A stretch of 32,000 nucleotides of DNA from a bacterium (GTDB taxonomy: Bacteria; Auribacterota; Erginobacteria; Erginobacterales; DAOSXE01), in contig DAOSXE010000001.1 in assembly GCA_035380285.1 (NCBI GenBank), forward strand, positions 150,659-182,658, read 5' to 3'. The notes beneath the pieces are model-generated. The model was given only the letters and a program-made list of their open reading frames with translations. It was not told the origin of the DNA and made no database searches. The stretch's first letter is position 1; every line of letters begins with the position of its first letter. A program made the translations under genes and the position numbers. Shown in pieces: positions 7,229-19,197 of this stretch.

Positions 7229-8340
7229 GCGTCTGGAATTACTTCAAATACGGCCGGCGGCTTTTCTATAAACGCAACGCTTCGCCGCTGTACCTGGTTT
7301 TTTTCGTTACCGAGCGCTGCAACGCCCGTTGCCGCCACTGTCTTCTGGGGGGAATCCATCCCGGTCGCGACGAACTTACCCTGGAAGAGATCGAGCGGGT
7401 TTCCCGCTCGATGGACGATTTTCTTTTTCTGCTCCCCACCGGGGGGGAGCCGTTTCTTCGTTCCGACCTTCCCGAGATCGTGGAGGTGTTCTACCGCAAC
7501 AACCATATCCAGAACGTAGGCATTCCCACCAACGGCGGTCTGACGGAGAAAGTGGTGGGGGCGGTGGAAGAGATCCTGCGCCGCTGTCCGGGGCTGGATT
7601 TGATGGTGGATGTCTCCATCGACGGAATCGGCCCCGATCACGACGAGATCCGCCGGGTGCCCGGGCTCTTCGAAAAAGCCATGGAGACCTTCCGGCGCCT
7701 GAAGGAGATCGACGCCGCGCACCCCCGGTTCACGGCCAGCATAGAAACCACGGTTTCTTCCTTCAACGACGATAAACTGGAAGACATGTTCCGCTATTTC
7801 ACCGAGAAAGCCGGAGCGCAATCCATATTCACGCTCCTCTGCCGGGGCAAACCCATGGAGCCGGCCGCCAAATTTTTCGACATCGAACGCTACACCCGTT
7901 ACGCCGAAGCCCTGGAAGCGGGGATGATGCGGCGACGGCTCACCGGGTACGATAAGTTCCCCTTCGCCGACCTGATCAACGCCAAACGGATCGTGCGCCA
8001 CCGCCTCATCGGCAGAATCATCCGCGAGAACAGGATGGTCCTTCCCTGCTACGCGGGGATACTGGGCGCCGCGCTCTTCGCCAACGGCGACGTGCTCCCC
8101 TGCGAGCTGCATTCGGATCTGACCATGGGAAACGTCAGGGAAGCAGGATACGATTTCAAGCGGATCTGGTTCGGCGCCGCCGCCGTCCGCGCCCGGGAAA
8201 CCATCAGGAAACAGAAGTGTTTCTGCACCTATGAGTGTTTTCTCACCCTCAACATCCTCTTCAATCCCCGCATGTATCCGCAGCTCATCAAGGAATATCT
8301 GAAGGTGAAGTGGGCGAAGCTGTTCGGGAGGCGGCAGTGA
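7225..8340 (+). CDS. Radical SAM enzyme with C-terminal SPASM/twitch-like auxiliary Cys cluster
   Basis: CxxxCxxC at ERCNARCRHC and a GGEP motif (PTGGEPFL). The C-terminus has C-x13-G-x4-C (PCYAGILGAALFANGDVLPC) followed by CFCTYEC. The start overlaps the upstream stop (ATGA). Confidence 0.8.
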   Translation: MSVWNYFKYGRRLFYKRNASPLYLVFFVTERCNARCRHCLLGGIHPGRDELTLEEIERVSRSMDDFLFLLPTGGEPFLRSDLPEIVEVFYRNNHIQNVGIPTNGGLTEKVVGAVEEILRRCPGLDLMVDVSIDGIGPDHDEIRRVPGLFEKAMETFRRLKEIDAAHPRFTASIETTVSSFNDDKLEDMFRYFTEKAGAQSIFTLLCRGKPMEPAAKFFDIERYTRYAEALEAGMMRRRLTGYDKFPFADLINAKRIVRHRLIGRIIRENRMVLPCYAGILGAALFANGDVLPCELHSDLTMGNVREAGYDFKRIWFGAAAVRARETIRKQKCFCTYECFLTLNILFNPRMYPQLIKEYLKVKWAKLFGRRQ

Positions 8341-8672
8341 GCGGACGAGCCAAACCGCCGAAGCTTCATTATGTCCGCCCCCGGCGCTGGATCAGCGTTT
8401 CGTCGCCTCGGGCGGACGATATCGGCAAAAGGCCCCAACTGACCCGAAACTACATCTTTCTGGTGGTGGGGCTGGCGATCGTCGCCGGCGCCCTGATCGG
8501 ATGGGGTATCGGGATCGGGATCAACCGGGCCGTGCACATCAACACCCGCCTGGAGCCCGTCGGCGGTGATTCAGCGAAACCCGCGTCCGGCGCTTTCAGC
8601 GCTTATTCGGAGGCGCCCGAAATCGAACTGTCCGCCGGCGAACTCTCGCCTTCGCTGAAGGCGGTGCGCTGA
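8337..8672 (+). CDS. Small single-pass membrane protein (111 aa), hypothetical
   Basis: GTG at 8337 overlaps the radical SAM stop (GTGA), with GGGAGG 5 nt upstream. The protein has a basic N-terminus and then a clear TM helix (NYIFLVVGLAIVAGALIGWGIGIGI). Third codon positions are strongly G/C, like the neighbouring genes. The last 70 nt overlap the convergent motB-like gene, which lowers confidence. Confidence 0.5.
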   Translation: MSGRAKPPKLHYVRPRRWISVSSPRADDIGKRPQLTRNYIFLVVGLAIVAGALIGWGIGIGINRAVHINTRLEPVGGDSAKPASGAFSAYSEAPEIELSAGELSPSLKAVR

Positions 8673-9430
8673 ACGATCTCGATCTCCACCCGCCGGTTCC
8701 GGGCGCGGCCTTCCGGGGTTTCGTTGGAGGCCACCGGTTTTTGGGAGCCGTAGCCGACGGCGCTGAACCGGGCCGGGTCGACCTGGTGGGAATCGATGAA
8801 ATAGCGCAGCACGGCCGCGGCCCGGGCGCTGGAAAGTTCCCAATTGGAAGGATACAGCGGCGTGTGAATGGGCGTGGAGTCGGTGTAGCCGCCGATCCGG
8901 ACCTGGTAGGGGTTGAGTTCGAAAAACGCCGCCAGCCGATCGAGCAGTTCCCGGGCCTGGGGCCGGAGAACGGCTTTGCCCGGAGAGAAGAGGAACGGGG
9001 CCAGGGGCACGATCGTCACCTTCCAGCGCGAAACCTCGACCCGAACGAACCGTTCCAGACCCTGGTCGACGACGTACTGCTTGATCTCCTCCCCGAGCTT
9101 CTGGAGTTCGTCCACCCGCTCCAGTTCCTTGAGCAGGGGCGACTCCAGTTTTTCCAGTTTGACGATCAGATCGGGGTCGGCTTCCCGGACCTCGACCAGA
9201 GGGACGTTGTCCGGGGCCTCGACATCGGCCTGGTCGGTCTGGATGAATTTCTTCCCCGCGATCCAGGCGGGGTTGATCTTGAGGGCGAGCATGGTGGCCA
9301 GGATGATGAAGAAGGTCATGAGCAGGGTGGCCATGTCCGAATAGGTGGTCATCCAATCCGGAGGCCAGGTCGCCTCCAGGTCCCCGGACCCGGTTTCCTG
9401 GGTTCCCCTGGTTCTTCGCCGCGCCGCCAT
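8603..9430 (-). CDS. motB: MotB-like stator subunit, paralog 2 (TM helix with conserved Asp plus OmpA-like peptidoglycan-binding domain)
   Basis: WPPDWMTTYSDMATLLMTFFIIL carries the MotB channel Asp in YSDM. The C-terminal OmpA-like domain reads VRIGGYTDSTP...SNWELSSARAAAVLRYF...NRRVEIEIV. Confidence 0.85.
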   Translation of the reverse strand: MAARRRTRGTQETGSGDLEATWPPDWMTTYSDMATLLMTFFIILATMLALKINPAWIAGKKFIQTDQADVEAPDNVPLVEVREADPDLIVKLEKLESPLLKELERVDELQKLGEEIKQYVVDQGLERFVRVEVSRWKVTIVPLAPFLFSPGKAVLRPQARELLDRLAAFFELNPYQVRIGGYTDSTPIHTPLYPSNWELSSARAAAVLRYFIDSHQVDPARFSAVGYGSQKPVASNETPEGRARNRRVEIEIVQRTAFSEGESSPADSSISGASE

Positions 9431-9432
9431 GG

Positions 9433-10272
9433 CTATCCCTTGTCCAGCATCTCCGAACTGATATACATGTGAAATTCGATCCGCCGGTTCCGGGCCCGGT
9501 GCTCGGGCGTGTCGTTGGGGAAACGGGGCAGGGAGTCGCCGTAGCCGCTGACCGAGATCAGGCTGGCGGGGATCCCGCCGTGCTCGATCAGATAGCGCCC
9601 GGCCGCCACCGCCCGGGCGCTGGAGAGCTCCCAGTTGCTGGGGAACCGGCGCCGGTGGCAGGGGTGGATGGGGACGGAGTCGGTGTGGCCCTCGATCCGG
9701 ATCGCGGCCCCGGTCCCCCGCAGCAGCGCGGCGATCTTATCGAGGATGGGGTAGAAAGCGGGCTGCAGCGTGTCCGATCCTTCTCGGAAAAGGATGTCGG
9801 TGGTGGTGGGGATGAGAACGACGTCCTCGGCGGTGACCTTGATTTCGATGTCCCGGGCGACGCCGGTTTGGGCCAGGGTCTCCTTGATCTCCTCGGCCTT
9901 CTCCTGGATGGGCCGGAGTTCGTCGACGGCCAACTCCTGTTGGGGGGAAATATTGCGGGCCAGATCGGCCACGCGTTTTTTGACCATCACCTGGCGGGGT
10001 TGATCTCCCTTTTTAATATCGGTCTGTTCTTCGGCGATTCCCCGGACGATCTTGCTCGATGATTCCTTGGCGATCTCGATCCATTCCTGGGGCAGCCCCA
10101 TCATGGTGTTGGCGTACCAGAGCACGAAGAAAGTGAGCAGGATCGTGGTCATATCCGAATAAGTGGTCATCCACTTCGGCGGCCACTCCCCCTCCAGCCC
10201 TCCTTCCTGAACGTCGGGCTCGATGCGGGTCCGCTCGACCAGGGGATCGCCGGCTTTCTTCTTTCTCGGCAA
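9433..10272 (-). CDS. motB: MotB-like stator subunit, paralog 1
   Basis: WPPKWMTTYSDMTTILLTFFVLW is followed by an OmpA-like domain (IRIEGHTDSVP...SNWELSSARAVAAGRYL...NRRIEFHMY). The apparent TTG start comes directly after the motA TGA, with GGGAGG 6 nt upstream. Confidence 0.85.
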   Translation of the reverse strand: MPRKKKAGDPLVERTRIEPDVQEGGLEGEWPPKWMTTYSDMTTILLTFFVLWYANTMMGLPQEWIEIAKESSSKIVRGIAEEQTDIKKGDQPRQVMVKKRVADLARNISPQQELAVDELRPIQEKAEEIKETLAQTGVARDIEIKVTAEDVVLIPTTTDILFREGSDTLQPAFYPILDKIAALLRGTGAAIRIEGHTDSVPIHPCHRRRFPSNWELSSARAVAAGRYLIEHGGIPASLISVSGYGDSLPRFPNDTPEHRARNRRIEFHMYISSEMLDKG

Positions 10273-11028
10273 TCACTGCCTCCCGGCCAGGTAGGCCTTG
10301 AGTTTCTCCCGGACGATCTGGGAATTGTCCCCCGCCTGGATGGATGCGATGCCTTCGATGATGATCTCGCGGGTGAGGGCCATGTTGGTGTTGTAGACCC
10401 GGATTTTGCCGGCGATGGGCATACAGAAAAGCCCGGCCAAAACGATTCCGTAGAAGGTGGTCATCAGGGCCACGGACATGTTGGGGGCGATGGTCTCCAC
10501 GTCGGAGAGGGTTCTCAGCAGCAGGATCAGCCCGACCAGGGTCCCGACCATCCCGAAGAGGGGGGCGTAGACCGAGATGTCGCGCCAGAGCCGTTCGTCG
10601 GTGGAGATCTTCATGTGCAGGTAGTCGGAGACGGTCTCGAGGATCCCCCGGGTGACTTCGGGGTCGGTTCCGTCCGCCACCAGGTCGACGCCGATGTCGA
10701 GCAGGGGGTAGCGGCCGTTGGTGGAGAGCTCCCGGATGGCCATGAACCCTTCCCGGCGGGCCTTGACCGCCATGTCGACGATGATCTCGATCACGGACTC
10801 CGGGCTGAGCACCCGGGTGACCAGAGTGAAACGGAAAGCCTTGAGGCCGTCCACGATCTGGCGGATGCTGAAGTTGATAAGGATGGCGGCCGAGGTACCC
10901 CCGAAGACGATCAGGACCGACGGCCAGTTGACGAAGTACCCCACCATCTCCATGCCCCCCCTGAGGAAGATGGAGAAGAAGATAACGCAGAACCCGATGA
11001 TGAAGCCGATAATGGTCGTCAGTCGCAT
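10273..11028 (-). CDS. motA: MotA/PomA-like stator channel subunit (MotA/TolQ/ExbB family)
   Basis: 251 aa with 4 TM helices. The cytoplasmic loop has AVKARREGFMAIRE, equivalent to the MotA Arg/Glu pair that faces FliG. APLFGMVGTLVGLI and TTFYGIVLAGLFCMPIAGKI contain the two conserved MotA prolines. Confidence 0.9.
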   Translation of the reverse strand: MRLTTIIGFIIGFCVIFFSIFLRGGMEMVGYFVNWPSVLIVFGGTSAAILINFSIRQIVDGLKAFRFTLVTRVLSPESVIEIIVDMAVKARREGFMAIRELSTNGRYPLLDIGVDLVADGTDPEVTRGILETVSDYLHMKISTDERLWRDISVYAPLFGMVGTLVGLILLLRTLSDVETIAPNMSVALMTTFYGIVLAGLFCMPIAGKIRVYNTNMALTREIIIEGIASIQAGDNSQIVREKLKAYLAGRQ

Positions 11029-11037
11029 GGCCTGTTC

Positions 11038-11238
11038 CTATTCCTTGGGTTGCAGCGGTGCCGCGATCGAACGCTTGTAATCCTTCACTTTCCCGACGAT
11101 TTCGTCCACGCTTTCACGGGCGATGAACTGCTCGCCGGTGGTCAGGGTGATGATCGTATCCGGCCGGCCTTCCACCCGTTCGATGAAATCGGCGTTGAGA
11201 ACCATCTCCTGCCCGTTGAGCCTGGTCACCTTTATCAT
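11038..11238 (-). CDS. flbD: FlbD-family flagellar protein
   Basis: MIKVTRLNGQEMVLNADFIERVEGRPDTIITLTTGEQFIARESVDEIVGKVKDYKRSI matches the FlbD consensus I remember (MIKLTRLNG..F.LN.DLIE.IE.TPDT.ITL..G....V.ESV.E) nearly position for position. It sits just upstream of motA, as in spirochaete/Firmicute flagellar operons. Confidence 0.85.
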   Translation of the reverse strand: MIKVTRLNGQEMVLNADFIERVEGRPDTIITLTTGEQFIARESVDEIVGKVKDYKRSIAAPLQPKE

Positions 11239-11253
11239 GAAATCCGGCCCCCG

Positions 11254-13338
11254 CTAAACCATCTCCTCCTGGAACCTGTGCACCGAAACCTGTCCCTCGC
11301 GTTCGAGCTTGCGGATGGTGGCGATGATCTCGTGCTGGGCCTCCATGGTCTTGCTGCTGAGCTGGCGGAGGATGTTCATGATCTCCTCCTGGGCTTCGTC
11401 GGCCCGCTTGCGGCTGATCGAACCCATCACTTCCAGATCCTCCTTGAGCATGGCCACCGCCCGCTCCGTCAGGCCGGCGAAAAACTTCTCCCGCACCTGC
11501 TCGGACGCCCCCCGCAGCGCCATCTTCAGGACGGTCCGGTCCACGGTCCGGAAGATATCCTCGATCACGTTCTGATCGACTTCCAGCATGGCTTCGTTGA
11601 ACGGCAGTTCCTTTCCTTCGCGCTCGATCTCGACCCGGCGCACGGTTTGGGTGTCTTCTTCGAACATTTCCCGGGCCCGGTCGGTCATGTTGCGCAGGAA
11701 CTTGGCTTTAACTTCGTCGGACGCATCGGAGAGCGAGTTGGCGATCATCTCCCGGGAGATGTTGTGGATAAGGGTTTCGATATCCTTGTCGTCCAGGGAT
11801 GAGATGTCCTCGAAGAGGAACATGCGTTTGCGGACCTCCTCGGCCAGGGTGGTATTCCGTTTCTGCATGTTCTCCAGAATGATCTTGGCCACCGCGTACC
11901 GGCTGGAACTGAGGATGTCGGCCAGAACCCGGTAGCCCATGACCGGGATATAATCTTTCAGCATCTTGATCTGTTTGAGCTTGCGTTCCAGGAAAGCCTT
12001 GATCTCCCCGGCCATGTCCTCCCCCTCGGTCAGAGAACTCATGGCCTGGGCCACCTCCAGCTGTTTTTCCTCCTCCAGCTTGCTCAGGGCATCGGCGGCG
12101 TCCTTGGGATCGACTTGGGAGAGAACCGCGGCGGCCAGTTTCGGTTCCTCGTCCATGATCAGGAGGTGGACTTCGTCGGGCGGCAGGGAGCGCAGGTACT
12201 TGAAGGGCTCGTCGAGGAGCGAGGCGTCGGGGAGCTTCTCCAGTTGCTGGGACATCAGATCTTCGATGTTGCCCAGGACCTCGACCACCTCGGCGCCGAA
12301 GCCGACTCCGGCGGCTCCCGGCGCCGCCGGTCCGGCCGCCTGCGCCGCCGGGGCCGCGGCCGCCGGTGCTCCCGTTCCGGGAGTCCCGGTGCCGGTGCCG
12401 CCGCCGGCGACCAGCTTGCGCTGTTCGTCGAGCATGTCGGAGAGAGTGTCCCGGATTTCGGAGAGCAGGGCGTCCGCTTCCTGGGGCCCGCGGGTGAGGG
12501 CGTCGCGGATCTCCCCCAGCAGCTCGTCGAAATTGGTCCCCTGGCCGCTCCGGTCGAGGGCGTCTCGGATCTCTTCCAGTATTTCTCCGTAATCCCCGCC
12601 GCCGGCGGCAGCCACCACCTGGCGGATTTCCTCCAGTTCCTGGCGCCGCCGTTTCTTCTTGTCTTCCGGGCTTTCCTCGTGCCCGCTCCCCCCCGCTTCG
12701 CCGCCCGCCCCCTGGGCCCCGCCGATGATCGCCGTTTCCGCGCGTTTCTGTTTCCGCAGGGGCAGGAATATGGCGGCGATCAGGATGAGCAGGCCCGCGA
12801 GGGCGATGAGGGCGTAGAGGACGTAGTTCTGTTGGGCCGCCGAGGGAGGAAGCGCCACTTCGGGCCACGGTTCGGGGACGACGGCGACGGTGTCGCCGCG
12901 GGCTTCGTTGATCCCGGCCCAGCGCCGGACGGCCGGTTCGATGGCTTCGATCTGTTCCTGGGGCAGGTTTTCGTCGACCTCGACGGTGATGTGGAGGCTG
13001 GAGATGGTGGGGGAGAAGTTATTGGCCGCCTGAACCAGTTTCTTTTCCTGGGCGGCGTCGACCGTCTTTACCCCGGATATCCGGGAAAGCCCCTGTATCC
13101 TCTGCAGGTTGCCGTTACCGGTGGGATCGCTGAGGGTGACGTCGATGGATACGATCGTTCTTCCCGGCCCCACCAGGGTGTCGAGTTTGGGCTGTAGGTT
13201 GGCTTGGATGGCCGCTTCGGTCTGGGCTTCGGCGCTGCTCTGGGCCACTTGGGCCGCACCGGTCCCGGCCAGGAGGAGGAAGACGGTGGCCAGGACGGCG
13301 CTCGCTCTAACCGGTCCGCGGGAGAGGCTGCCGGGCAT
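11254..13338 (-). CDS. Fusion protein: signal/TM1, FliF/YscJ-like periplasmic ring-building module, TM2, repeat and low-complexity linker, FliG middle domain, two FliG C-terminal (torque-helix) domains
   Basis: aa 11-27 form a hydrophobic N-terminal segment. aa 45-155 (LQPKLDTLVGPGRTIVSIDVTL ... ISSLHITVEVDENLPQEQIEAIEPAVRRWAGINEARGDTVAVV) follow the FliF/YscJ pattern. aa 171-193 form a TM helix followed by RKQKR. aa 385-435 (LPPDEVHLLIMDEEPKLAAAVLSQVDPKDAADALSKL) resemble the FliG_M EHPQ region. aa 505-560 (MFLFEDISSLDDKDIETLI...SDASDEVKAKFLRNMTDRAREMFEED) match FliG_C, as do aa 590-690 (VIEDIFRTVDRTVLKMALRGASEQVREKFFAGLTERAVAMLKEDLEVMGSISRKRADEAQEEI...LEREGQV). GGAGGA lies 8 nt upstream of the ATG. 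Confidence 0.8.
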   Translation of the reverse strand: MPGSLSRGPVRASAVLATVFLLLAGTGAAQVAQSSAEAQTEAAIQANLQPKLDTLVGPGRTIVSIDVTLSDPTGNGNLQRIQGLSRISGVKTVDAAQEKKLVQAANNFSPTISSLHITVEVDENLPQEQIEAIEPAVRRWAGINEARGDTVAVVPEPWPEVALPPSAAQQNYVLYALIALAGLLILIAAIFLPLRKQKRAETAIIGGAQGAGGEAGGSGHEESPEDKKKRRRQELEEIRQVVAAAGGGDYGEILEEIRDALDRSGQGTNFDELLGEIRDALTRGPQEADALLSEIRDTLSDMLDEQRKLVAGGGTGTGTPGTGAPAAAAPAAQAAGPAAPGAAGVGFGAEVVEVLGNIEDLMSQQLEKLPDASLLDEPFKYLRSLPPDEVHLLIMDEEPKLAAAVLSQVDPKDAADALSKLEEEKQLEVAQAMSSLTEGEDMAGEIKAFLERKLKQIKMLKDYIPVMGYRVLADILSSSRYAVAKIILENMQKRNTTLAEEVRKRMFLFEDISSLDDKDIETLIHNISREMIANSLSDASDEVKAKFLRNMTDRAREMFEEDTQTVRRVEIEREGKELPFNEAMLEVDQNVIEDIFRTVDRTVLKMALRGASEQVREKFFAGLTERAVAMLKEDLEVMGSISRKRADEAQEEIMNILRQLSSKTMEAQHEIIATIRKLEREGQVSVHRFQEEMV
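12424..12639 (-). repeat. In-frame degenerate tandem repeat (4 copies of an xxEIR[DQ]x[LV] helix motif) inside the FliF/FliG-fusion gene
   Basis: The protein shows ELEEIRQVV / ILEEIRDALDRSG / LLGEIRDALTRGP / LLSEIRDTLSDML. On the + strand the units appear as GAGGGCGTCGCGGATCTCCCCCAGCAG, GAGGGCGTCTCGGATCTCTTCCAG and similar. A Gly/Thr/Pro/Ala low-complexity linker follows (aa 311-347, nt 12298-12408). Confidence 0.8.
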
Positions 13339-13342
13339 GGTC

Positions 13343-14119
13343 TTAATCCTCCGTAGGTTCGGTTCCGGCCGATCCGGCCGGTTCCGGGACCGCGGCGGGC
13401 CCCCCCACCGTCTCCAGCCCGGCGTAGCGGGGGACGATCAGCACCATTCCCGGGTAGATCAGGTCCGGTTCGAAGATCTGGTCGCGATTGGCGTGGTAGA
13501 GAAGGAGCCAACGGTAGGGGTTGCCGTAAACTTCCGGCTTGCCCGCGATGGTCCAGAGGCACTCGCCCTCGCCGACCAGGTAGGTGTCCATGCCCAGAAG
13601 CTGCGCGGAAACCGGTTCGCCCGCGGCGGTTACCGTGATCCGCGGACCGGTCTCGGAACCGCTCGCCTCGGCCTCGCTGAGCTGCAGCTCCGCCTGGCGG
13701 CGCTTGATTTCTTCGTCTTCGGCCTTGATCGTCAATTCCTCGACCTGGTTTCTCAAGGCCTCGACTTCTTTTTTCAGGGCGTCGGCGGCGGCTTGTTCGT
13801 CCCGCAGGGCCTGGAGAAGCTCTTCCTCGCTGGGGGCGGGAGACTCCGCGGTTCTTCGAGACCCGGCTTCGGGGTAGTAGCGTTCGAGGTCGCGCATCCG
13901 GGGGTTGCGGAAGATGAACCCCTCGTTGCCCCAGAGGACGTCGTCGGGTCCCCCGATGGTCAGCGGCCGGGGGCTGAACGGGTAGTCCATGGGGCGGAAG
14001 GTGCGGCCGCCCGGTTTCCAGACGCTCTCCAGGTCGTAACGGTCCGCGATTTCGGCCGTGTCCGCAAGGAGGTTTCCCGCCGCCCCCGCGGCCAGAATGA
14101 AGATGAACAGTCGCTTCAT
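13343..14119 (-). CDS. Secreted coiled-coil protein with C-terminal LysM peptidoglycan-binding domain
   Basis: Signal peptide MKRLFIFILAAGAAGNLLA. The central heptad-rich segment is EEELLQALRDEQAAADALKKEVEALRNQVEELTIKAEDEEIKRRQAELQL. The LysM-like C-terminus is YLVGEGECLWTIAGKPEVYGNPYRWLLLYHANRDQIFEPDLIYPGMVLIVP. I prefer the ATG at 14119 over the TTG at 14122, because AAGGAG lies 6 nt upstream of the ATG. Confidence 0.75.
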   Translation of the reverse strand: MKRLFIFILAAGAAGNLLADTAEIADRYDLESVWKPGGRTFRPMDYPFSPRPLTIGGPDDVLWGNEGFIFRNPRMRDLERYYPEAGSRRTAESPAPSEEELLQALRDEQAAADALKKEVEALRNQVEELTIKAEDEEIKRRQAELQLSEAEASGSETGPRITVTAAGEPVSAQLLGMDTYLVGEGECLWTIAGKPEVYGNPYRWLLLYHANRDQIFEPDLIYPGMVLIVPRYAGLETVGGPAAVPEPAGSAGTEPTED

Positions 14120-14156
14120 CAAGGGCTCCTTAGATTGAAGTAATTGCTGAAATCAA

Positions 14157-14186
14157 TTTATAGCAACTGCCGCTTTGAATTGTCAA
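14157..14186 (-). promoter_or_regulatory. Putative sigma70-type promoter of the LysM-FliF/G-FlbD-MotAB operon
   Basis: On the minus strand: TTGACA (14186-14181), an 18-nt spacer, then TATAAA (14162-14157). It lies about 35 nt upstream of the AAGGAG RBS, in the only AT-rich gap of this region. Confidence 0.4.
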
Positions 14187-14283: not shown

Positions 14284-15315
14284 ATGGAAAGAAAAAGGCT
14301 GGCAAATCGCCTGCTCACCGGGATTTGGATTTTCCTGTTCCTCCTGGTGGTGGGACTTTTTTTGGGGAGCCGGTTGACGGAGGTGAAGGGGTGGCTGCGG
14401 GGTTTGGTCCGCGAGCCGCAAGCCGTCATGAACTCCTTCCAGCCCCGTTCGATGGCGGGTTTCCGATGTTCCTTCGAGCAGCCCGGGGATACCGGGATCT
14501 GGGTCACCCACCAGACGGCGCTGGCGGTGACCGACCTGGATCTGCCCGGCGCCCGGCACTGGGCCCGGGTCACGTATTACCCCGGCACCGCTCCGGGGCT
14601 TCTCTGGACCGACGAATCCATGGGCGTGATGGATTGGCGGGGGGTGAAGGCGTTGGAATTCGACGCTTATAACCCCAACGGGTGGCCCGTGGATTTGAAG
14701 ATTAAAATCAAGGACCAGTCCGGGAACTCCTTCCAAAGAGCCCAGAAACTGGCGCCGGGCCGAACTACTTCGATATCAGTACCGCTGTCGGCTGCATCCG
14801 GCCAACTCAACCTGGGGCGAGTCAGCTATCTGAATCTTTTCTTGTGGGGCCCGGGAAGCGAAACGGTTCTCTTCTTTTCCAATTTCAGCCTCCCCGGGGT
14901 CGGCGAGACCCCACCGGCTTCGAACCGGCAGCCGGGGCTTAAATTTCTTGGGTTGGAATTTCCCCGGATTCTCCGCCGGGGGGAGATAGTTGAGGCTTCT
15001 TTCTTCTTCATGCCGGAGGCGGCGTTGCCGGAGGGCTGCCTGCTCTTGGTCCGTCTCAAGAATCGAGCCGGCATCACTCCCTTGGGCGAGGTTTCCCCGC
15101 CGCTGCCCACCTCGGCCTGGGCGCCGGGGCGGATGGCCCGGGTCGGTCCGTTCCCCCTGGAAATCCCGATGACCGCCTCCCCCGGCTTGTACGAACTGGA
15201 AGCGGTCATGGCCCGTCCCTTGGGGGAGAGCGGGGAAGGGGGGGTTGTTTTTCTGCCCTACGCCAACGCCGACCTGCCCGGGCATTCGGTGGCCGAGGTG
15301 GAAGTGATCGAGTGA
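14284..15315 (+). CDS. Membrane-anchored hypothetical protein, architecture TM-X-Y (X = CBM/galactose-binding-like domain, Y = Ig-like repeat domain shared with the next gene)
   Basis: N-terminal TM helix LLTGIWIFLFLLVVGLFLG. Domain X contains DWRGVKALEFDAYNP...DLKIKIKDQSGNSF...LFFSNFSL. Domain Y contains RRGEIVEASFFFMPEAALPEG...PTSAWAPGRMARVGPFPLEIPMTASPGLYELEAV. I recognise no catalytic motif. Confidence 0.6.
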   Translation: MERKRLANRLLTGIWIFLFLLVVGLFLGSRLTEVKGWLRGLVREPQAVMNSFQPRSMAGFRCSFEQPGDTGIWVTHQTALAVTDLDLPGARHWARVTYYPGTAPGLLWTDESMGVMDWRGVKALEFDAYNPNGWPVDLKIKIKDQSGNSFQRAQKLAPGRTTSISVPLSAASGQLNLGRVSYLNLFLWGPGSETVLFFSNFSLPGVGETPPASNRQPGLKFLGLEFPRILRRGEIVEASFFFMPEAALPEGCLLLVRLKNRAGITPLGEVSPPLPTSAWAPGRMARVGPFPLEIPMTASPGLYELEAVMARPLGESGEGGVVFLPYANADLPGHSVAEVEVIE

Positions 15316-15359
15316 GATTTCGAAACGACAAGCAGCGACTGTAACCGGAGAAAGTGGAG

Positions 15360-16823
15360 ATGCATAAAAAATTGATGGGTTTAGCGATCTTCCTGGTATT
15401 GACTGGGATGGGTAGGAGCGAAACCGTGCTCAGGGAAGGCCCCGCCCGGCTGAAATTCATCAGTTTTTCCCTGCAGACCGAGATTCCCCAGGGGACGTTC
15501 GTCAAGGCCAGCGCTTTTTTCCAGCTTACGGCTCCGGTCGACGGCGACGAGAAGGTGTTTTTCCATCTGGCTCCGGCCGGCCAGAAAAACCCGGTTCTCA
15601 ACGCCGATTTCTATCCCAAATATCCCACTTCGCTTTGGGCGGTGGGCCAGACGGTGGAAGCCGGCCCGATCGGCCTGACCGTTCCCGGCACGATCGCCCC
15701 CGGAGAGTACGATCTCAGGACCGGGTTGATGGAGATCGACCGCACCGGGCAGGAAACCCGGTATATCCGGGAAAAGTTCACCAATCCCGAGATCAAGGAT
15801 TTCACGGTGGGTCGGGTGCGGGTGGTTCCTCCGGCCGACGGAGCCGGGGGAGGGCCGGGGGAAGGGGAGCAGGCTCCCGTCGCCGACCTGGACATAGTCA
15901 GTTTCGAGAAAGACAACGACGTCCTCCTCTGGCAACCGGTGGGGGCGCGGGTCGAGCGCTACGACCTCGACGAGCTCCCGGTGGCCGCGGTCGCCATCGT
16001 CCCCGATCCGTCGGTCCCTTATCCGGGGGTGGAGTTGAACAATTTTTTCCAGATATTCCCCCAATATGCCGACTGGTCGCTGTACGACGCTCTCCAGGTA
16101 GGTTTGTCGGTCCCCGGCCAATCTCCCCTGCGCAGGTTGTTCATACAGATCAGCGACGCTCAAGGACGGATGTATAAAAAGGAAGTCCGGTTGAAACCGG
16201 GGGAGTCGGCTCAGGAACTGCTGGATATGGTGACGCTGGGGGGGGTAATCAATATCTCCCGGATAGCGCGGGTGAAAATCTTTTCGGTCGCCCTCGACCG
16301 GGAAGCCACCTTTTACGTCACCGGGTTGCGGCTGCTGGCGCGGGGGATGCCGACCAGCGAGCCCACGGTCGAGTTCGTGCGCCTGGAATGCCCGGCCAGC
16401 GTCAAGCGGGGGGAAGTCTTCTTCGTCAAGGTGTTCTTTTCCCTGAAGGCTCCGGTCTTCGCCCCCTGCAAGCTGTTCGTCCATATCTACCGGGAAAACG
16501 ACCTCCAGGGAGCGGTGAACGGGGACAACAATCTGGTGGTCCCGGTACGGCAGTGGCCGCTGAAGCAGGAAGTGGGCGCGTTGTCGTCGCCGGTGATGAT
16601 CCGCCCCGACGCCCCTCCCGGGCGATATCTGGTCCGGGCCGGTCTCTATACCCCCATCCAAAGCGACGGGGTCGGGTATATCAAGACCGCGACCTGGGAC
16701 GACGGCCGGGGGCAGGAGGTCGTCAACATCGAGCAGCCGGTGGTCGGGGAAGATTATATCAAGCAGCCCTATACCGATCCCAAGATCGAGGATTGGGTGG
16801 TGGGCTCGATCCAGGTCGAATAA
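15360..16823 (+). CDS. Secreted hypothetical protein, architecture SP-Y-X-Y (paralogous to the previous gene)
   Basis: Signal peptide MHKKLMGLAIFLVLTGMG. The two Y copies end in a near-identical tail: FTNPEIKDFTVGRVRVV and YTDPKIEDWVVGSIQVE. The central X domain (ADWSLYDALQVGLS...LFIQISDAQGRMY...FYVTGLRLL) parallels domain X of the upstream protein. I prefer the ATG at 15360 over the GTG at 15354, because GGAG lies 9 nt upstream of the ATG. Confidence 0.6.
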   Translation: MHKKLMGLAIFLVLTGMGRSETVLREGPARLKFISFSLQTEIPQGTFVKASAFFQLTAPVDGDEKVFFHLAPAGQKNPVLNADFYPKYPTSLWAVGQTVEAGPIGLTVPGTIAPGEYDLRTGLMEIDRTGQETRYIREKFTNPEIKDFTVGRVRVVPPADGAGGGPGEGEQAPVADLDIVSFEKDNDVLLWQPVGARVERYDLDELPVAAVAIVPDPSVPYPGVELNNFFQIFPQYADWSLYDALQVGLSVPGQSPLRRLFIQISDAQGRMYKKEVRLKPGESAQELLDMVTLGGVINISRIARVKIFSVALDREATFYVTGLRLLARGMPTSEPTVEFVRLECPASVKRGEVFFVKVFFSLKAPVFAPCKLFVHIYRENDLQGAVNGDNNLVVPVRQWPLKQEVGALSSPVMIRPDAPPGRYLVRAGLYTPIQSDGVGYIKTATWDDGRGQEVVNIEQPVVGEDYIKQPYTDPKIEDWVVGSIQVE

Positions 16824-16850: not shown

Positions 16851-17702
16851 ATGAGCAGAGTCCGCAGCAGGTTGGCCGTCCTGGGCGTGGTCGGTCTGGC
16901 CGGCCTATGCGCCGTGGCCGGTTTTCTTTTGTTCGACGCCCTGGTCGTCGAACCCAACTGGATCACCGTGCGGCGCGTGCGCATCGAAAACCCGGACCTG
17001 GCCGCCGCCCTGGAGGGGGTCCGGGTCGCCCAGATCTCCGACCTCCACCTGCGGGGGAGCTTGGGGTTCCGGGAACGGTCCCTGATCGCCCGCTTGAACC
17101 GGTTGCGCCCCGATCTGATCCTCATTACCGGAGATCTGGTCGAAGGACCGGGGCAGGGCCGCTTGGCCGTGGAATTCATCCGCCAACTCAAGCCCGGGCT
17201 CTGGTCCTACGGAGTTCTGGGTAACGCCGACCGCAACGCCTTTTCCGTATCCCAGCGGAATGCCCTGCGCCGGGCCGGCCTGGAGATGATCGGGGAAAGG
17301 GCGTTGCGGATGCAGCCGGGAGCGGCTCCGGCCGAATTTTATCTGGCCGGGATCGATTTCCCCGGCTACGGGCAACCGGTGCCCGCCGACCGGATCCGGG
17401 AAATCGTCTCCGGGGTGCCTCCGGGAAAACCCATAATTTTTCTGGCTTATTCCCCCGACGCGGCGGAAGCGCTGGCGGATGAAGGCGTGGACCTGGTGCT
17501 TTCCGGGGATTCCCACGGCGGGCAGGTCGGCCTTCCCGGTTGGGGGAGTCTGTTCGAGGAGTTCGGGAGGTCGCGGTTCGTCCGGGGTCTCTACCGGTTG
17601 AAAAACACCGTTCTCTACGTCAATCGGGGGATCGCCACCAAGACGGTGCCGATCCGCTTTCTCTGCCCCCCCGAAATCACCCTCTTCGAGTTTACCCGAT
17701 GA
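16851..17702 (+). CDS. Membrane-anchored calcineurin-like metallophosphoesterase (YaeI/YkuE-like) with substituted active-site histidines
   Basis: N-terminal TM helix, then motifs ISDLHL, ITGDLV, LGNADRN (where GNHD is expected), LAYSPD (where H-N-P-D is expected) and SGDSHGGQ (where GHTHGGQ is expected). Confidence 0.7.
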   Translation: MSRVRSRLAVLGVVGLAGLCAVAGFLLFDALVVEPNWITVRRVRIENPDLAAALEGVRVAQISDLHLRGSLGFRERSLIARLNRLRPDLILITGDLVEGPGQGRLAVEFIRQLKPGLWSYGVLGNADRNAFSVSQRNALRRAGLEMIGERALRMQPGAAPAEFYLAGIDFPGYGQPVPADRIREIVSGVPPGKPIIFLAYSPDAAEALADEGVDLVLSGDSHGGQVGLPGWGSLFEEFGRSRFVRGLYRLKNTVLYVNRGIATKTVPIRFLCPPEITLFEFTR

Positions 17703-18553: not shown

Positions 18554-19197
18554 AAAAACGGGGTGTGATCGTCGTCGTCGAAACCGTTGCGGCCGTTTTG
18601 ATCCTGGGGTTGGCGGCGACGATTTCGAACCGGCGTCACGAGCCGGGCTCGTATCCGGTCATCGATCTCGAGAAGATTCCGCTGGAAATCTCCGGCTGGA
18701 AGGGAAAGCGCGTTTCCCTGGGGCCCGACCATCCCGCCCGGGTCGGAGGAGTCGCCGCGGTGTATATCAGCTATCTCAAGGGGGACAGACATCTCGATCT
18801 CTACGTGGTGGAGGGCGCCCCCGGGACGTTTTCGCTCCACCCTCCCGAATATTGCCTGATCGGCGGGGCCAGCGACGAGACCGCGCGGTCGCGGATCGGC
18901 GTTCCTTACGGGGAGGGGAAGGAGATCGAGGTCAACCGCTTCGAGGCCGAAAGGATGCGGCGCCGGAGCCTGGTGTATTACTGGTACGCGGACGGTAACG
19001 GTTTTACTCCGGATTATCTTCTTCCCCAGGTGGCCAACCTGGCGAAGCGCCTGGCGGGGCGAGAGCGAGCCTTCTGCCTGGTCCGGCTTTCCTGGGACGG
19101 CGACGACGGGCTCGACTACGCGGAAGAATCCTTCCGGCTCTTTATCCGGGAAGCGCTGCCCGCGATCGCTCCGATCTTCTCCGGCGGCGGGAAATGA
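18550..19197 (+). CDS. epsI: EpsI-family exosortase-associated protein
   Basis: N-terminal TM helix (VIVVVETVAAVLILGLA), then IPLEISGWKGKRVSLGPD...YISYLKGDRHLDLYVV...YYWY, typical of EpsI/DUF3485 partners of exosortases. The start ATG at 18550 overlaps the exosortase stop; an ATG at 18538 is also possible. Confidence 0.7.
   Translation: MKKRGVIVVVETVAAVLILGLAATISNRRHEPGSYPVIDLEKIPLEISGWKGKRVSLGPDHPARVGGVAAVYISYLKGDRHLDLYVVEGAPGTFSLHPPEYCLIGGASDETARSRIGVPYGEGKEIEVNRFEAERMRRRSLVYYWYADGNGFTPDYLLPQVANLAKRLAGRERAFCLVRLSWDGDDGLDYAEESFRLFIREALPAIAPIFSGGGK

What the first reader, a model, noticed from the sequence alone, without database searches (positions are those of the whole stretch)
11254..13338. 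Natural FliF-like / FliG fusion lacking FliG_N and carrying two FliG_C torque domains
One 694-aa ORF runs in this order: hydrophobic N-terminal segment; about 135-aa periplasmic region; TM helix; cytoplasmic linker; a FliG_M-like domain; then two consecutive FliG_C-like domains. The periplasmic region has FliF/YscJ ring-building-motif-like strands (LVGPGRTIVSIDVTL ... ISSLHITVEVDENLPQEQIEAIEPAVRRWAGINEARGDTVAVV). The FliG_M-like domain has EEPK in place of the EHPQ motif. In canonical motors FliF and FliG are separate proteins, and FliG_N exists to bind the FliF C-terminus. Here FliG_N appears to be replaced by a covalent link, and FliF is reduced to roughly one ring-building unit instead of three. 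Engineered FliF-FliG fusions are recalled to be functional in Salmonella, so the architecture is mechanistically plausible. The second FliG_C copy (aa 590-690) is the better match to the torque helix (LTERAVAMLKEDLEVMGSISRKRADEAQEEI). It also contains a small internal duplication of the last helix (AQEEIMNILRQL / AQHEIIATIRKLEREGQV). A rotor with two stator-facing domains per subunit and no FliM/FliN partner would be unusual.
Basis: partly seen in the sequence, partly recalled or inferred. Interest (0 to 1): 0.8.

Follow-up and report, generated by a model that had tools for sequence, protein, structure and literature searches.

The report
Flagellum-free FliF-FliG rotor with MotAB
One conserved gene fuses a cut-down flagellar membrane-ring protein to the torque-receiving rotor protein FliG and sits in an operon with stator (MotA/MotB) genes inside a surface-polysaccharide locus with no other flagellar genes nearby, so it is probably the rotor of an undescribed non-flagellar ion-driven motor.

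Summary
ORF 11254..13338 (-) encodes 694 aa, in this order:
- a likely cleavable signal peptide;
- one FliF RBM3-type ring-building domain with a shortened collar;
- a TM helix;
- a 180-aa linker that is not FliG_N;
- FliG_M;
- FliG_C carrying a partial internal tandem duplication, which gives two torque helices.

It is not an assembly artefact. Twenty-seven full-length homologues (49-70% identity) from independent assemblies keep every part.

The gene is the second of a tight six-gene operon: LysM protein, fusion, FlbD/SwrD, MotA, MotB, MotB'. The operon is embedded in an exosortase/EPS locus. This arrangement is conserved in about 14 Auribacterota-type species, one of which is a MAG reported to lack flagella.

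A profile of the N-terminal domain finds about 45 further clusters of RBM3-TM-FliG_MC fusions. Named sources are Omnitrophota, Electryoneota and Gemmatimonadota MAGs. In six of the eight contexts examined they sit next to MotA/MotB and cell-surface machinery: EPS export genes, CHU_C adhesins with PorP/SprF, or giant proteins.

Best reading: a one-protein rotor of a non-flagellar MotAB-driven machine that acts on the envelope or on EPS. The output is unknown. I found no publication describing it.

The parts
14157..14186 (-). Putative sigma-70-type promoter of the operon: TTGACA (14186-14181), 18-nt spacer, TATAAA (14162-14157). It is followed by an AGGAG ribosome-binding site (14130-14126) and an ATG at 14119.
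   Evidence: Read directly from the sequence. The consensus scanner did not list it because the last base of the -10 hexamer is A. Function is inferred, not shown.
13343..14122 (-). Gene 1: secreted coiled-coil protein with a C-terminal LysM-type peptidoglycan-binding domain. The probable true start is ATG 14119.
   Evidence: NCBIfam LysM PRK11198 1.9e-10 and LipL71 5.6e-10; weak Pfam LysM. It ends 4 nt before the fusion gene. It is found upstream of the fusion in the Auribacterota-type loci (tblastn), and the gene upstream of the fusion in the Omnitrophota-type loci L030 and L033 carries a weak Pfam LysM hit.
13252..13338 (-). Fusion aa 1-29: probable Sec signal peptide, cleaved before invariant Gln30.
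   Evidence: Basic n-region, an uncharged stretch of 13-22 residues, and A/S/G at -1 in 21 of 22 homologues. Cleavage is inferred.
12859..13251 (-). Fusion aa 30-160: periplasmic FliF RBM3-like ring-building domain. Its short (about 40 aa) insert lies where FliF has the beta-collar and keeps a conserved PGV loop.
   Evidence: AF2 topology. Foldseek top 17 hits are all FliF RBM3/S-ring. hhalign to FliF 236-401. Pfam YscJ_FliF_C. The N-terminal profile retrieves canonical FliF proteins in two stretches flanking their collar.
12754..12840 (-). Fusion aa 167-195: transmembrane helix (near-invariant LILIAAIYFP[ML]RK).
   Evidence: Alignment A1; AF2 helix 167-202; hydropathy scan of relatives.
12214..12753 (-). 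Fusion aa 196-375: cytoplasmic linker that stands in for FliF_C plus FliG_N. It has three conserved L-x-E-I-R-D-x-L helices (aa 250-305, nt 12424-12591) and a disordered Ala/Gly/Pro-rich spacer (aa 311-347, nt 12298-12408).
   Evidence: Invariant columns in A1; AF2 helices 224-311 at pLDDT 55-66; no similarity to FliG_N or the FliF C-terminus; only short low-complexity DNA repeats.
11953..12213 (-). Fusion aa 376-462: FliG middle domain (ARM_M), with EEPK in place of EHPQ.
   Evidence: Pfam FliG_M 7.6e-11; PDB FliG alignments; hhalign 99.9%; motif conservation.
11797..11952 (-). Fusion aa 463-514: ARM_C and the invariant MFLF hinge (aa 506-509).
11623..11796 (-). Fusion aa 515-572: first, truncated copy of the FliG_C helical bundle (C-alpha1-4). 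Its torque helix keeps K/R554, E561, D/E562 and K/R567-568.
   Evidence: Alignment to T. maritima and A. aeolicus FliG_C; HMM 244-305; conservation.
11353..11595 (-). Fusion aa 582-662: second, complete copy of the FliG_C bundle (C-alpha1-6). The torque-helix charges R626, E633, D634 and R645 are invariant.
   Evidence: 1lkv and 1qc7 alignments; Foldseek 1qc7 TM 0.85, rmsd 1.5 Å, 41% identity, attributed to this copy from the phmmer match of 1qc7 to aa 582-661, since the Foldseek output gives no query range; HMM 244-324; conservation.
11281..11349 (-). Fusion aa 664-686: extra repeat of the last FliG_C helix (AQHEIIATIRKLEREGQ).
   Evidence: Weak HMM hit at 308-330 in the query, P0004 and P0031; shuffle z = 3.8; AQH, I672, A673, R676, K677 and L678 are invariant.
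11038..11238 (-). Gene 3: FlbD/SwrD-family protein (66 aa).
   Evidence: Pfam FlbD 4.7e-27. It carries N15, I19, E23, P26, D27 and T28, which PMC13232269 lists as the most conserved SwrD residues.
10273..11028 (-). Gene 4: flagellar-type stator A subunit (MotA/PomA-like, 251 aa).
   Evidence: Pfam MotA_ExbB. NCBIfam best matches are PomA and MotP, below the equivalog cut-offs. Solved MotA/PomA chains match at 1e-41 over the full length. It is the most conserved gene of the operon, 70-87% identity.
9433..10272 (-). Gene 5: MotB paralogue 1 (279 aa), with plug, channel Asp (YSDM) and an OmpA-like peptidoglycan-binding domain.
8603..9430 (-). Gene 6: MotB paralogue 2 (275 aa), with the same features; 36% identical to paralogue 1.
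14284..16823 (+). Two divergently transcribed paralogous secreted or membrane-anchored proteins of unknown function (343 and 489 aa). They accompany the cassette in most EPS-type loci and are candidate partners.
   Evidence: No Pfam or PDB match. They are paralogues (9e-14). They co-occur in L001, L003-L006, L008-L011, L027 and L031.

Best explanation
The 694-aa protein is the single-polypeptide rotor of a non-flagellar, ion-driven rotor-stator machine encoded by the six-gene operon 14122..8603 (-).

Steps supported by sequence, profile or predicted-fold comparison (none tested biochemically):
- The protein combines a FliF RBM3 ring-building domain, one TM helix, FliG_M and FliG_C. Its torque-helix charges and MFXF hinge are conserved.
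- FliG_N, FliF RBM1/2 and the FliF C-terminal helices are absent.
- Its operon partners are a flagellar-type MotA, two MotB paralogues with the channel Asp and peptidoglycan anchors, and FlbD/SwrD.
- No export-apparatus, rod, hook, filament or FliM/FliN genes lie in this window or in any related locus examined.

Inferred steps:
- After Sec export and signal-peptide cleavage, the RBM3 domains oligomerise into a periplasmic ring, as FliF RBM3 does in flagella.
- This places an equal number of covalently tethered FliG_MC units under the membrane.
- MotA5MotB2-type stators, anchored to peptidoglycan, use ion flow to push on the FliG torque helices.
- The ring turns or is strained, and the force passes through the TM helices to the periplasmic ring.

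Output (least certain): the ring acts on envelope machinery encoded around it. Here that is the Wzx/Wzy-type EPS and exosortase system, the LysM protein and two unknown secreted paralogues. The likely task is to drive or organise export or movement of surface polymer. In distant relatives the same module sits next to CHU_C (T9SS type-B) adhesins with PorP/SprF, which suggests propulsion of surface cargo.
For: - Domain identity.
- Conservation of functional residues: FliG torque charges in both copies, the MFLF hinge, the MotB YSDM Asp and the MotA ARR/KEG loop.
- Tight operon with gaps of 0-15 nt.
- MotA is the most conserved gene, 70-87% identity. This argues for purifying selection on a working stator.
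- The whole architecture and the EPS/exosortase synteny are conserved in 27 homologues and about 14 GTDB species.
- One carrier, Ca. Erginobacter occultus (P0024, L010), belongs to MAGs reported to encode no flagella (PMC9324843).
- About 45 further 50%-identity clusters share the RBM3-TM-FliG_MC plan.
- In six of the eight distant contexts examined they adjoin MotA/MotB, usually with FlbD. Of the other two, L028 shows no stator gene near the fusion and L037 holds an apparently split version. None of these contexts holds another flagellar family.
- One carrier, Ca. Electryonea clarkiae, is reported to have a complete separate flagellar gene set. There the fusion is an extra system, not the flagellar MS ring.
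Against: - There are no experimental data. Ring formation, rotation and stator engagement are all inferred from homology.
- Genome-wide absence of flagellar genes could not be tested for the window's organism.
- The whole-protein AF2 model is of moderate quality (mean pLDDT 60). The collar insert and the linker are low-confidence.
- There is no obvious axial or output component.
- A LysM partner could tether the ring to peptidoglycan, which would oppose free rotation.
- The MotA rotor-facing Glu is displaced by one residue relative to canonical MotA/PomA, so the interface is not canonical.
- The link to EPS rests on gene neighbourhood only.
Confidence: 0.55

Rival explanations
1. It is a signalling or regulatory device rather than a mechanical motor. 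The ring plus stators would act as a load, surface or ion-flux sensor, or as a c-di-GMP-controlled switch, that tunes EPS production. This would be comparable to stator-dependent surface sensing and to FliG-targeting clutches and brakes in flagellated bacteria.
For: Two-component and c-di-GMP genes recur next to relatives:
- a histidine kinase plus a GGDEF response regulator directly upstream in L030;
- a hybrid kinase plus a response regulator in L028, where no MotA is adjacent;
- a PilZ protein in L032;
- a histidine kinase fused to RBM3-FliG in P0055.
The cassette also has no output shaft.
Against: The window operon and the Auribacterota-type loci carry no sensor kinase, GGDEF or PilZ gene next to the cassette. 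The torque-helix charges, the MFXF hinge, the MotB channel Asp and a torque-related FlbD/SwrD are all kept. That is the full force-generating interface, more than a sensor would seem to need. The two readings do not exclude each other.
Confidence: 0.2
2. It is the MS-ring/C-ring protein of a genuine but highly divergent flagellum whose other genes lie elsewhere in the genome.
For: All its domains are flagellar. FlbD-MotA-MotB is the gene order seen in flagellar operons of Bacillota and Spirochaetota (my own knowledge; SwrD is described as part of the fla-che operon). One Auribacterota MAG (Ca. Auribacter fodinae) is reported to have flagella. JGI annotates some members as 'flagellar motor switch protein FliG'.
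Against: - RBM1 and RBM2, which hold the export gate (my own knowledge), are missing, and the collar through which the rod passes is shortened.
- FliG_N and the EHPQ FliM-binding motif are missing.
- There is no flagellar gene within 32 kb here or within ±10 kb in more than 20 related loci.
- Carriers include a MAG reported to lack flagella and one reported to have a complete canonical set.
Confidence: 0.1
3. It is a non-rotating structural relic or scaffold. A degenerate remnant of a lost flagellum would be retained as a membrane ring that merely organises EPS or exosortase proteins, and MotAB would act only as a peptidoglycan-anchored ion channel.
For: Reduced flagellar remnants exist in the PVC group. 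The Chlamydiaceae FliF-FliG_M fusion occurs without a flagellum (PMC4768692). No output component was identified.
Against: Force-generating residues are invariant across lineages in which the FliG_MC region is only 17-46% identical to the query's. MotA is under the strongest constraint of the operon. The family is large and diverse and always keeps the stator next to it, which is unlike decaying relics.
Confidence: 0.12
4. It is an assembly chimera or a collapsed repeat that joins separate fliF-like and fliG genes.
For: High GC and a low-complexity Ala/Gly/Pro-coding stretch at 12298-12408.
Against: The same continuous 686-710-aa ORF occurs in 27 clusters from four independent data sources and on contigs of up to 436 kb. 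The duplicated segments are roughly one-quarter identical at the protein level, by my count from the alignment printed, so they cannot arise from repeat collapse.
Confidence: 0.01

Closest known systems
Canonical flagellar rotor: FliF (MS ring) plus FliG (top of the C ring) driven by MotA5MotB2 stators
   Same: RBM3 ring-building fold. FliG_M, ARM_C, the MFXF hinge and the C-alpha1-6 bundle with the charged torque helix. A flagellar-type MotA, MotB with plug, Asp and an OmpA-like domain, and FlbD/SwrD as neighbour.
   Different: - One polypeptide instead of two.
- No RBM1 or RBM2, a shortened collar, and a probable signal peptide instead of TM1.
- FliF_C and FliG_N are replaced by an unrelated 180-aa linker.
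- EEPK in place of EHPQ.
- Duplicated torque sub-domain.
- Two MotB paralogues.
- No FliM/FliN, export apparatus, rod, hook or filament genes nearby.
- EPS/exosortase context.
Chlamydiaceae FliF-FliG natural fusion (about 330 aa; Bergeron 2016, PMC4768692)
   Same: A natural covalent FliF-FliG fusion in a PVC-group lineage regarded as non-flagellated, with a reduced periplasmic region between an N-terminal hydrophobic segment and a TM helix.
   Different: According to the paper, the chlamydial protein keeps RBM2 plus a second RBM-like unit, carries only a FliG_M-like region, has no torque domain, and is proposed to work with the injectisome. The present family has RBM3 only, a full FliG_MC with torque helices, and its own stator genes. 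Direct homology between the two was not tested here.
Engineered FliF-FliG fusions (Salmonella mutants, Thomas et al. 2001; Vibrio FliFG fusion, PDB 8z4d/8z4g, PMC11481574)
   Same: They show that covalently linked FliF-FliG can assemble into rings. 8z4d is among the PDB sequence hits (1.2e-15) and the structure hits.
   Different: The engineered fusions keep full-length FliF and FliG, including FliG_N, and work inside a complete flagellum.
Non-flagellar 5:2 motors coupled to surface machinery: GldLM/T9SS gliding with SprB-SprF, AglRQS with Glt/Nfs in Myxococcus, ExbBD/TolQR, and ZorAB
   Same: The concept is the same: an ion-driven inner-membrane stator powers an envelope or surface process. 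AglRQS also has one A-type and two B-type subunits and serves polysaccharide (spore-coat) deposition (my own knowledge). Distant relatives of the fusion sit beside CHU_C adhesins and PorP/SprF proteins, as in gliding systems.
   Different: None of those systems uses FliG or an RBM ring as the driven partner, and their stators belong to other subfamilies. MotA here gives no ZorA hit, and TolQ matches only at 3e-3.
EpsE clutch of Bacillus subtilis (an eps-operon glycosyltransferase that binds FliG)
   Same: A functional link between an EPS locus and FliG (my own knowledge; not tested here).
   Different: EpsE disables a flagellar rotor. Here the FliG-bearing rotor itself is encoded inside the EPS locus.

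Membership tests
FliG (flagellar motor switch protein) | FliG_M domain (PF14841) | tested here: met
   42.5 bits against a cut-off of 25, aa 389-457; hhalign 99.9% to canonical FliG.
FliG (flagellar motor switch protein) | FliG_C domain with the MFXF hinge and charged torque helix (E. coli R281, D288, D289, R297) | tested here: met
   PF01706 136.8 bits. MFLF is invariant. R626, E633, D634 and R645 are invariant in copy 2, and the equivalents are conserved in copy 1.
FliG (flagellar motor switch protein) | FliG_N domain that binds the FliF C-terminus | tested here: not met
   PF14842 scores 14.6 bits (below 25), and that match falls inside FliG_M. The canonical FliG HMM matches only from position 98. 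The linker against FliG_N gives 1% probability.
FliG (flagellar motor switch protein) | EHPQ motif of FliG_M (FliM contact) | tested here: not met
   EEPK: E397 22/22, E398 21/22, P399 21/22, K400 22/22.
FliG (flagellar motor switch protein) | Reaches the equivalog cut-off of TIGR00207 / NF004260 | tested here: not met
   172.6 bits against 226.7, and 51.4 against 550.
FliG (flagellar motor switch protein) | Works with FliM/FliN in a C ring | not testable with these tools
   No FliM or FliN family was found in the window or in related loci. The rest of the genome is not available.
FliF (MS-ring protein) | RBM1 and RBM2 (PF01514 YscJ_FliF) | tested here: not met
   No PF01514 hit. Canonical FliFs retrieved by the same profile do have it.
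FliF (MS-ring protein) | RBM3 fold | tested here: met
   The Foldseek top 17 hits are all FliF RBM3/S-ring structures, prob 1.0, TM 0.55-0.59. hhalign gives 93%. PF08345 scores 27.2 bits, above 23.8, but covers only profile positions 95-143.
FliF (MS-ring protein) | Full beta-collar inserted in RBM3 | tested here: inconclusive
   The insert is about 40 aa, against about 80-110 in the FliFs aligned. It retains a PGV loop that aligns with FliF GVPGV. The AF2 confidence there is below 50.
FliF (MS-ring protein) | Two transmembrane helices (N- and C-terminal of the periplasmic region) | tested here: inconclusive
   The C-terminal TM is clear. The N-terminal segment has signal-peptide features, with a conserved small residue at -1 before Q30. 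No dedicated predictor was available.
FliF (MS-ring protein) | C-terminal helices that bind FliG_N | tested here: not met
   The linker against the FliF C-terminus gives 0.4% hhalign probability.
Flagellar-type MotA/MotB stator | MotA/PomA-like A subunit; B subunit with plug, channel Asp and an OmpA-like peptidoglycan-binding domain | tested here: met
   Solved MotA/PomA chains match at 1e-41 over the full length. PF01618, PF13677 and PF00691 are present. YSDM occurs in both MotB paralogues. NCBIfam equivalog cut-offs are not reached.
Flagellar-type MotA/MotB stator | Rotor-facing charged residues of MotA (PomA R88, K89, E96; my own recollection of the numbering) | tested here: inconclusive
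   The basic pair is conserved (ARR/KEG). The canonical Glu position is Arg/Lys, with Asp/Glu one residue later, throughout the EPS-linked clade.
Bacterial flagellum (whole system) | Type III export apparatus, rod, hook and filament genes | tested here: not met
   None occur in the 32-kb window or in the neighbourhoods of relatives. At genome level, only the literature statement for Ace Lake Auribacterota is available.
FlbD/SwrD | PF06289 core with the conserved residues N15, I19, E23, P26, D27, T28 | tested here: met
   93.8 bits. All six residues are present in the 66-aa product (compared).
Chlamydiaceae FliF-FliG fusion | About 330 aa; RBM2 plus a second RBM; cytosolic FliG_M only | tested here: not met
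   The architecture differs: RBM3 only, FliG_M plus FliG_C, 694 aa. This comparison uses the description in PMC4768692. Sequences were not compared.
Zorya (ZorAB) defence system | ZorA with a long cytoplasmic tail, together with ZorB | tested here: not met
   No ZorA hit for MotA. The ZorB hits of the MotBs (about 1e-20) are weaker than their flagellar MotB-family hits (1e-42 to 1e-44).

The most novel reading that the evidence does not exclude
RBM3-TM-FliG_MC fusions with dedicated MotA/MotB(/FlbD) stators form a widespread, unrecognised class of non-flagellar rotary machines in uncultured PVC-group phyla (Auribacterota, Omnitrophota) and in Electryoneota and Gemmatimonadota. The rotor is a single protein, with no export apparatus, rod or switch complex. 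Its rotation moves or extrudes surface polymers or adhesins, which would be a new mode of secretion or gliding. Such a module would also be a living example of the 'rotor plus stator without type III secretion' stage invoked in models of flagellar origin, whether it is ancestral or secondarily reduced.
Probability: 0.4. Interest if true: 0.95.

Novelty: new variant of a known kind. Interest (0 to 1): 0.82.

Why it matters
1. It offers a natural minimal rotor. RBM3 plus FliG_MC, without FliG_N, FliM/FliN or the export gate, may be enough to pair with MotAB. This makes the question of what is needed for torque generation directly testable.
2. It bears on how the flagellar motor arose. It shows that the rotor-stator pair exists as a self-contained genetic module outside flagella.
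3. It points to an unknown energy-dependent step in EPS/exosortase biology, and in other phyla in CHU_C adhesin/PorP-SprF biology. This could be a new gliding or secretion mechanism in lineages with no cultured members.
4. There is a practical consequence. These genes are auto-annotated as 'flagellar motor switch protein FliG' and 'MotA/MotB', and they can wrongly suggest flagellar motility in MAG-based metabolic reconstructions.

Tried and rejected
- A profile of the periplasmic domain against PDB sequences found nothing, even at E = 10. The similarity to FliF appeared only by structure search, by hhalign and by searching the 1.84-billion-protein library.
- Only 2 of 17 family members reach significance for PF08345 on their own.
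- An NJ phylogeny of the FliG_MC region (52 fusions plus 10 canonical FliGs) was unresolved. The canonical/fusion split had 92 of 200 bootstraps, and the duplicated-C clade was not recovered. I therefore make no claim about monophyly or ancestry. One search timed out without output, and the tree was invalid because of NaN distances.
- The linker was tested as a cryptic FliG_N or FliF_C and rejected.
- Zorya-type defence was considered and rejected.
- The consensus promoter scan found no site. A TTGACA-N18-TATAAA site was then read by eye.
- No Rfam family or tRNA is present in the window.
- Ten literature searches found no description of this family. The topics were Auribacterota, FliF-FliG fusion, FliG-like, non-flagellar FliG/MotA, Omnitrophota with FliG, FlbD with non-flagellated, FliG/MotA/SprF, FliG paralogues, SwrD/FlbD, and exosortase with MotA/MotB.
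- The supplement of PMC9324843 (its Table S2) is not held.
- Short hits of the N-domain profile (170-430 aa) were checked as possible chlamydial-type fusions. They appear to be FliF fragments on short contigs.

Full report
**1. The observation**

GC by codon position is 0.69/0.41/0.83, which matches the genuine genes of this 62%-GC window.

Pfam gives three matches above their cut-offs:
- YscJ_FliF_C at aa 110-154 (27.2 bits against a cut-off of 23.8);
- FliG_M at aa 389-457 (E 7.6e-11);
- FliG_C in two stretches (E 4e-40).

MgtE_N stays just below its cut-off. NCBIfam recognises FliG (TIGR00207, 1.3e-50) but below the equivalog threshold. Solved FliG chains match with E down to 1.5e-30. T. 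maritima FliG aligns twice, to aa 377-527 and again to aa 593-661.

**2. Anatomy of the cytoplasmic half**

I built an HMM from ten canonical FliGs. It matches three segments:
- aa 363-571, HMM 98-305;
- aa 582-662, HMM 244-324;
- aa 664-686, HMM 308-330, weakly.

So the protein has one FliG_M, one ARM_C and one MFXF hinge. After these come a truncated copy of the C-terminal bundle (helices 1-4, including the torque helix), a short hairpin, a complete bundle, and a further repeat of the last helix.

The two copies are significantly similar (z = 10.5, 0 of 500 shuffles). The last-helix repeat is marginal (z = 3.8).

The charged residues that face the stator are well conserved in 22 homologues:
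- Copy 2: R626, E633, D634 and R645 are invariant.
- Copy 1: K/R554, E561, D/E562 and K/R567-568 are kept.
- The MFLF hinge is invariant.
- EHPQ is replaced by a near-invariant EEPK.

FliG_N is absent. Profile-profile alignment to canonical FliG starts at position about 112 with 99.9% probability. The 180-aa linker has 1% probability against FliG_N and 0.4% against the FliF C-terminus. The linker contains three conserved L-x-E-I-R-D-x-L helices and a variable Ala/Gly/Pro spacer.

**3. The periplasmic part**

AF2 predicts helix, strand, a low-confidence insert of about 40 aa, strand, helix, strand. The core pLDDT is 85-92 in the isolated-domain model.

- Foldseek against the PDB returns FliF RBM3/S-ring structures as its 17 best hits (E 1.6e-5 to 6.7e-4, probability 1.0). 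The injectisome protein PrgK follows at E about 1e-2.
- hhalign places aa 33-159 on canonical FliF positions 236-401, which span RBM3 and the collar (93%, E 2.7e-7). The family's conserved PGV loop aligns with FliF's GVPGV.
- RBM1 and RBM2 (PF01514) are absent.
- The N-terminal hydrophobic segment has the features of a Sec signal peptide. There is a small residue at -1 in 21 of 22 sequences, just before invariant Q30. The mature protein is therefore probably single-pass. This is an inference.

**4. Not an artefact**

Twenty-seven clusters of 686-710 aa match at 49-70% identity over at least 94% of the query. They come from JGI, ENA, NCBI and Logan assemblies, on contigs of up to 436 kb. Every element is conserved in the alignment, including the duplication and the linker repeats. 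The only DNA repeats are 6-9 nt low-complexity units in the spacer.

**5. Context in the window**

The gene is second in a six-gene operon with intergenic gaps of 0-15 nt:
- a LysM-type peptidoglycan-binding protein (13343..14122);
- the fusion;
- FlbD/SwrD (11038..11238; Pfam 4.7e-27; it has all six residues that PMC13232269 lists as most conserved);
- MotA (10273..11028; 1e-41 to solved MotA/PomA chains);
- two MotB paralogues (9433..10272 and 8603..9430; 36% identical; each has the plug, the YSDM aspartate and an OmpA-like domain).

A TTGACA-N18-TATAAA motif and an AGGAG site precede the first gene.

The flanks are an EPS locus:
- GT4 and GT2 glycosyltransferases;
- a polysaccharide deacetylase;
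- a priming sugar transferase;
- exosortase EpsH and EpsI;
- a radical-SAM/SPASM enzyme;
- rmlA, rmlB and rmlD.

No other flagellar family occurs in the 32 kb.

**6. Conservation of the context**

In about 14 species representatives, all labelled PVC group, Auribacterota or uncultured, the operon and its EPS/exosortase flanks are syntenic. MotA is the most conserved gene, at 70-87% identity.

One carrier is Ca. Erginobacter occultus (P0024, L010). The paper that described it states that none of the Ace Lake Auribacterota MAGs encode flagella (PMC9324843).

**7. A wider family**

I searched a profile of aa 1-200 against 1.84 billion representative proteins. It gave 77 hits, which fall into two main groups:
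- About 20 are canonical FliFs, matched in two pieces either side of their collar. This confirms the homology.
- About 45 are 450-670-aa proteins with the same plan: N-terminal hydrophobic segment, RBM3-like domain, TM helix, FliG_M and FliG_C.

Every fusion with a canonical-FliG HMM match that I printed starts at HMM position 99-118, and the median over all matched proteins is 108, so they lack FliG_N. Only the closest relatives (P0031, P0034, P0050) share the duplication.

Contexts of these relatives:
- An Omnitrophota MAG (L030) and locus L033 repeat the LysM-fusion-FlbD-MotA-MotB-MotB cassette inside Wzx/Wzy EPS loci. These loci contain Wza, Wzz, Wzy and a priming transferase.
- L027 and L031 add GH123 and the same two unknown paralogues.
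- P0051, P0093 (Ca. Electryonea clarkiae) and P0059 (78% identical to a protein from a Gemmatimonadetes MAG) have a different operon. Its order is fusion, FlbD in L036 only, MotA, MotB, a 1300-1560-aa FG-GAP/CHU_C protein, and a PorP/SprF-TPR outer-membrane protein.
- P0044 lies beside a 16,931-aa protein and a PilZ protein.
- P0055 has a histidine kinase fused in front.
- L028 (P0029) shows no stator gene beside the fusion, only a hybrid kinase and a response regulator.
- L037 looks like a split version next to a T2SS/T4P-like cluster.

Ca. Electryonea clarkiae is reported to have a complete flagellar gene set. There the fusion is clearly an additional system.

**8. Interpretation**

The best-supported reading is a self-contained rotor-stator module that works without a flagellum.

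- The homology-based findings are the domain identities, the conserved force-generating residues on the FliG and MotB sides, the dedicated stator genes, and the absence of flagellar genes in all the neighbourhoods.
- Inferred: the RBM3 domains form a ring, as in FliF. Each subunit carries its own FliG_MC. MotAB units push on the torque helices.
- Least certain is the output. Gene neighbourhood points to surface polymer or adhesin machinery.
- A sensing or regulatory role is the main rival, because kinase, GGDEF and PilZ genes recur near relatives. The two roles could coexist.
- A role in a true flagellum is unlikely, given the missing RBM1/2, collar, FliG_N and EHPQ, and the genomic evidence above.

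**9. Comparison with known systems**

- The closest published natural case is the Chlamydiaceae FliF-FliG_M fusion, which has no torque domain and no stator (PMC4768692).
- Engineered FliF-FliG fusions form rings (PMC11481574; PDB 8z4d).
- Functionally, the nearest analogies are GldLM/SprB-SprF gliding and AglRQS-Glt/Nfs. Neither uses FliG.
- Ten literature searches found no description of this family. Public annotations call it only 'FliG C-terminal domain-containing protein' or FliG.

**10. Limits**

- There are no experimental data.
- There are no genome-wide gene inventories.
- The phylogeny is unresolved.
- The full-length model is of moderate confidence.
- The MotA rotor-facing loop is altered, and the consequences are unknown.

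I rate the finding a new variant of a known kind, built from flagellar rotor and stator parts. There is a substantial chance that it represents a new class of machine.

Noticed in passing
window 14284-15315 (+) and 15354-16823 (+): Two paralogous proteins of unknown function (343 aa with an N-terminal TM, 489 aa with a signal peptide; BLASTP 9e-14). They share a recurring '...PTSxWxxG...PG.Y.L' module. They are transcribed divergently from the motor operon and co-occur with it in most EPS-type loci, including distant ones (L027, L031). There is no Pfam or PDB sequence match.
   Followed up: partly
window 10273-11028 (MotA aa 89-102) and the MotA genes of L001-L015, L027, L030, L031, L033: The rotor-facing loop reads ARK/REGFM[SA]IR[DE]L. 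Canonical flagellar MotA/PomA has A[KR][KR]xGLLALE. The conserved Glu position is Arg/Lys, and an acidic residue follows one position later. This holds throughout the EPS-linked clade, which overlaps the set of proteins carrying the duplicated torque helices but is wider than it (the fusions of L027 and L031 have a single FliG_C copy).
   Followed up: partly
window 12424-12591 (fusion aa 250-305): There are three tandem conserved amphipathic helices with the motif L-x-E-I-R/K-D-x-L in the linker between the TM helix and FliG_M. They have no detectable similarity to FliG_N or the FliF C-terminus. Their partner is unknown.
   Followed up: partly
window 8603-10272: Two MotB paralogues (36% identity) follow a single MotA. 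This one-A/two-B arrangement is conserved in the EPS-linked clade. The CHU_C/PorP-linked relatives have a single MotB.
   Followed up: partly
L034, L035, L036 (relatives P0051, P0093, P0059): The operon here is fusion-(FlbD)-MotA-MotB, followed by a 1300-1560-aa FG-GAP protein with a CHU_C (T9SS type-B C-terminal) domain and by a PorP/SprF-TPR outer-membrane protein. In L036, Wza and Wzz/kinase genes lie immediately upstream. This suggests that a surface adhesin is coupled to the motor.
   Followed up: no
L032 (P0044), L030 (P0031), L028 (P0029), and protein P0055: Signalling genes lie beside relatives:
- a PilZ protein and a 16,931-aa giant protein (L032);
- a histidine kinase plus a GGDEF response regulator (L030);
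- a hybrid kinase plus a response regulator (L028);
- an 836-aa protein with HisKA-HATPase fused in front of RBM3-FliG_M-FliG_C (P0055).
   Followed up: no
L037 1838-3507: This is an apparently split version: a 382-aa RBM3-TM protein followed by a separate 137-aa FliG_C protein, then FlbD and MotA, with two MotB genes on the opposite strand. A T2SS/type IV pilus-like cluster (PilM/N, pseudopilins, T2SSF) is adjacent. Whether this is a real split or a frameshift was not resolved.
   Followed up: no
window 7225-8340 (+): A radical-SAM/SPASM enzyme gene lies between the last MotB and the GT4 genes. It is present in only 3 of the related loci (L005-L007, about 70% identity), so it is a variable insertion in an otherwise syntenic locus.
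   Followed up: partly
window 17540-19197 (+): An exosortase EpsH gene (17540-18553) is followed by an EpsI/DUF3485 gene. The mechanical 486-aa ORF 17737-19197 overlaps EpsH in another frame, and only its C-terminal part (aa 286-479) is EpsI-like. The real EpsI start is therefore probably near 18550, as in L001 and L003, where EpsI is 213-214 aa.
   Followed up: partly
window 27847-29166 (+) and 30241-31551 (+): There are two phosphofructokinase-family genes about 1 kb apart. This fits the published note that Auribacterota MAGs carry both ATP- and PPi-dependent PFK (PMC9324843), and it is consistent with an Auribacterota origin of the window.
   Followed up: no
window 14157-14186 (-): A near-consensus TTGACA-N18-TATAAA motif lies in the 161-bp divergent intergenic region upstream of the LysM gene. 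The automatic scan missed it.
   Followed up: partly
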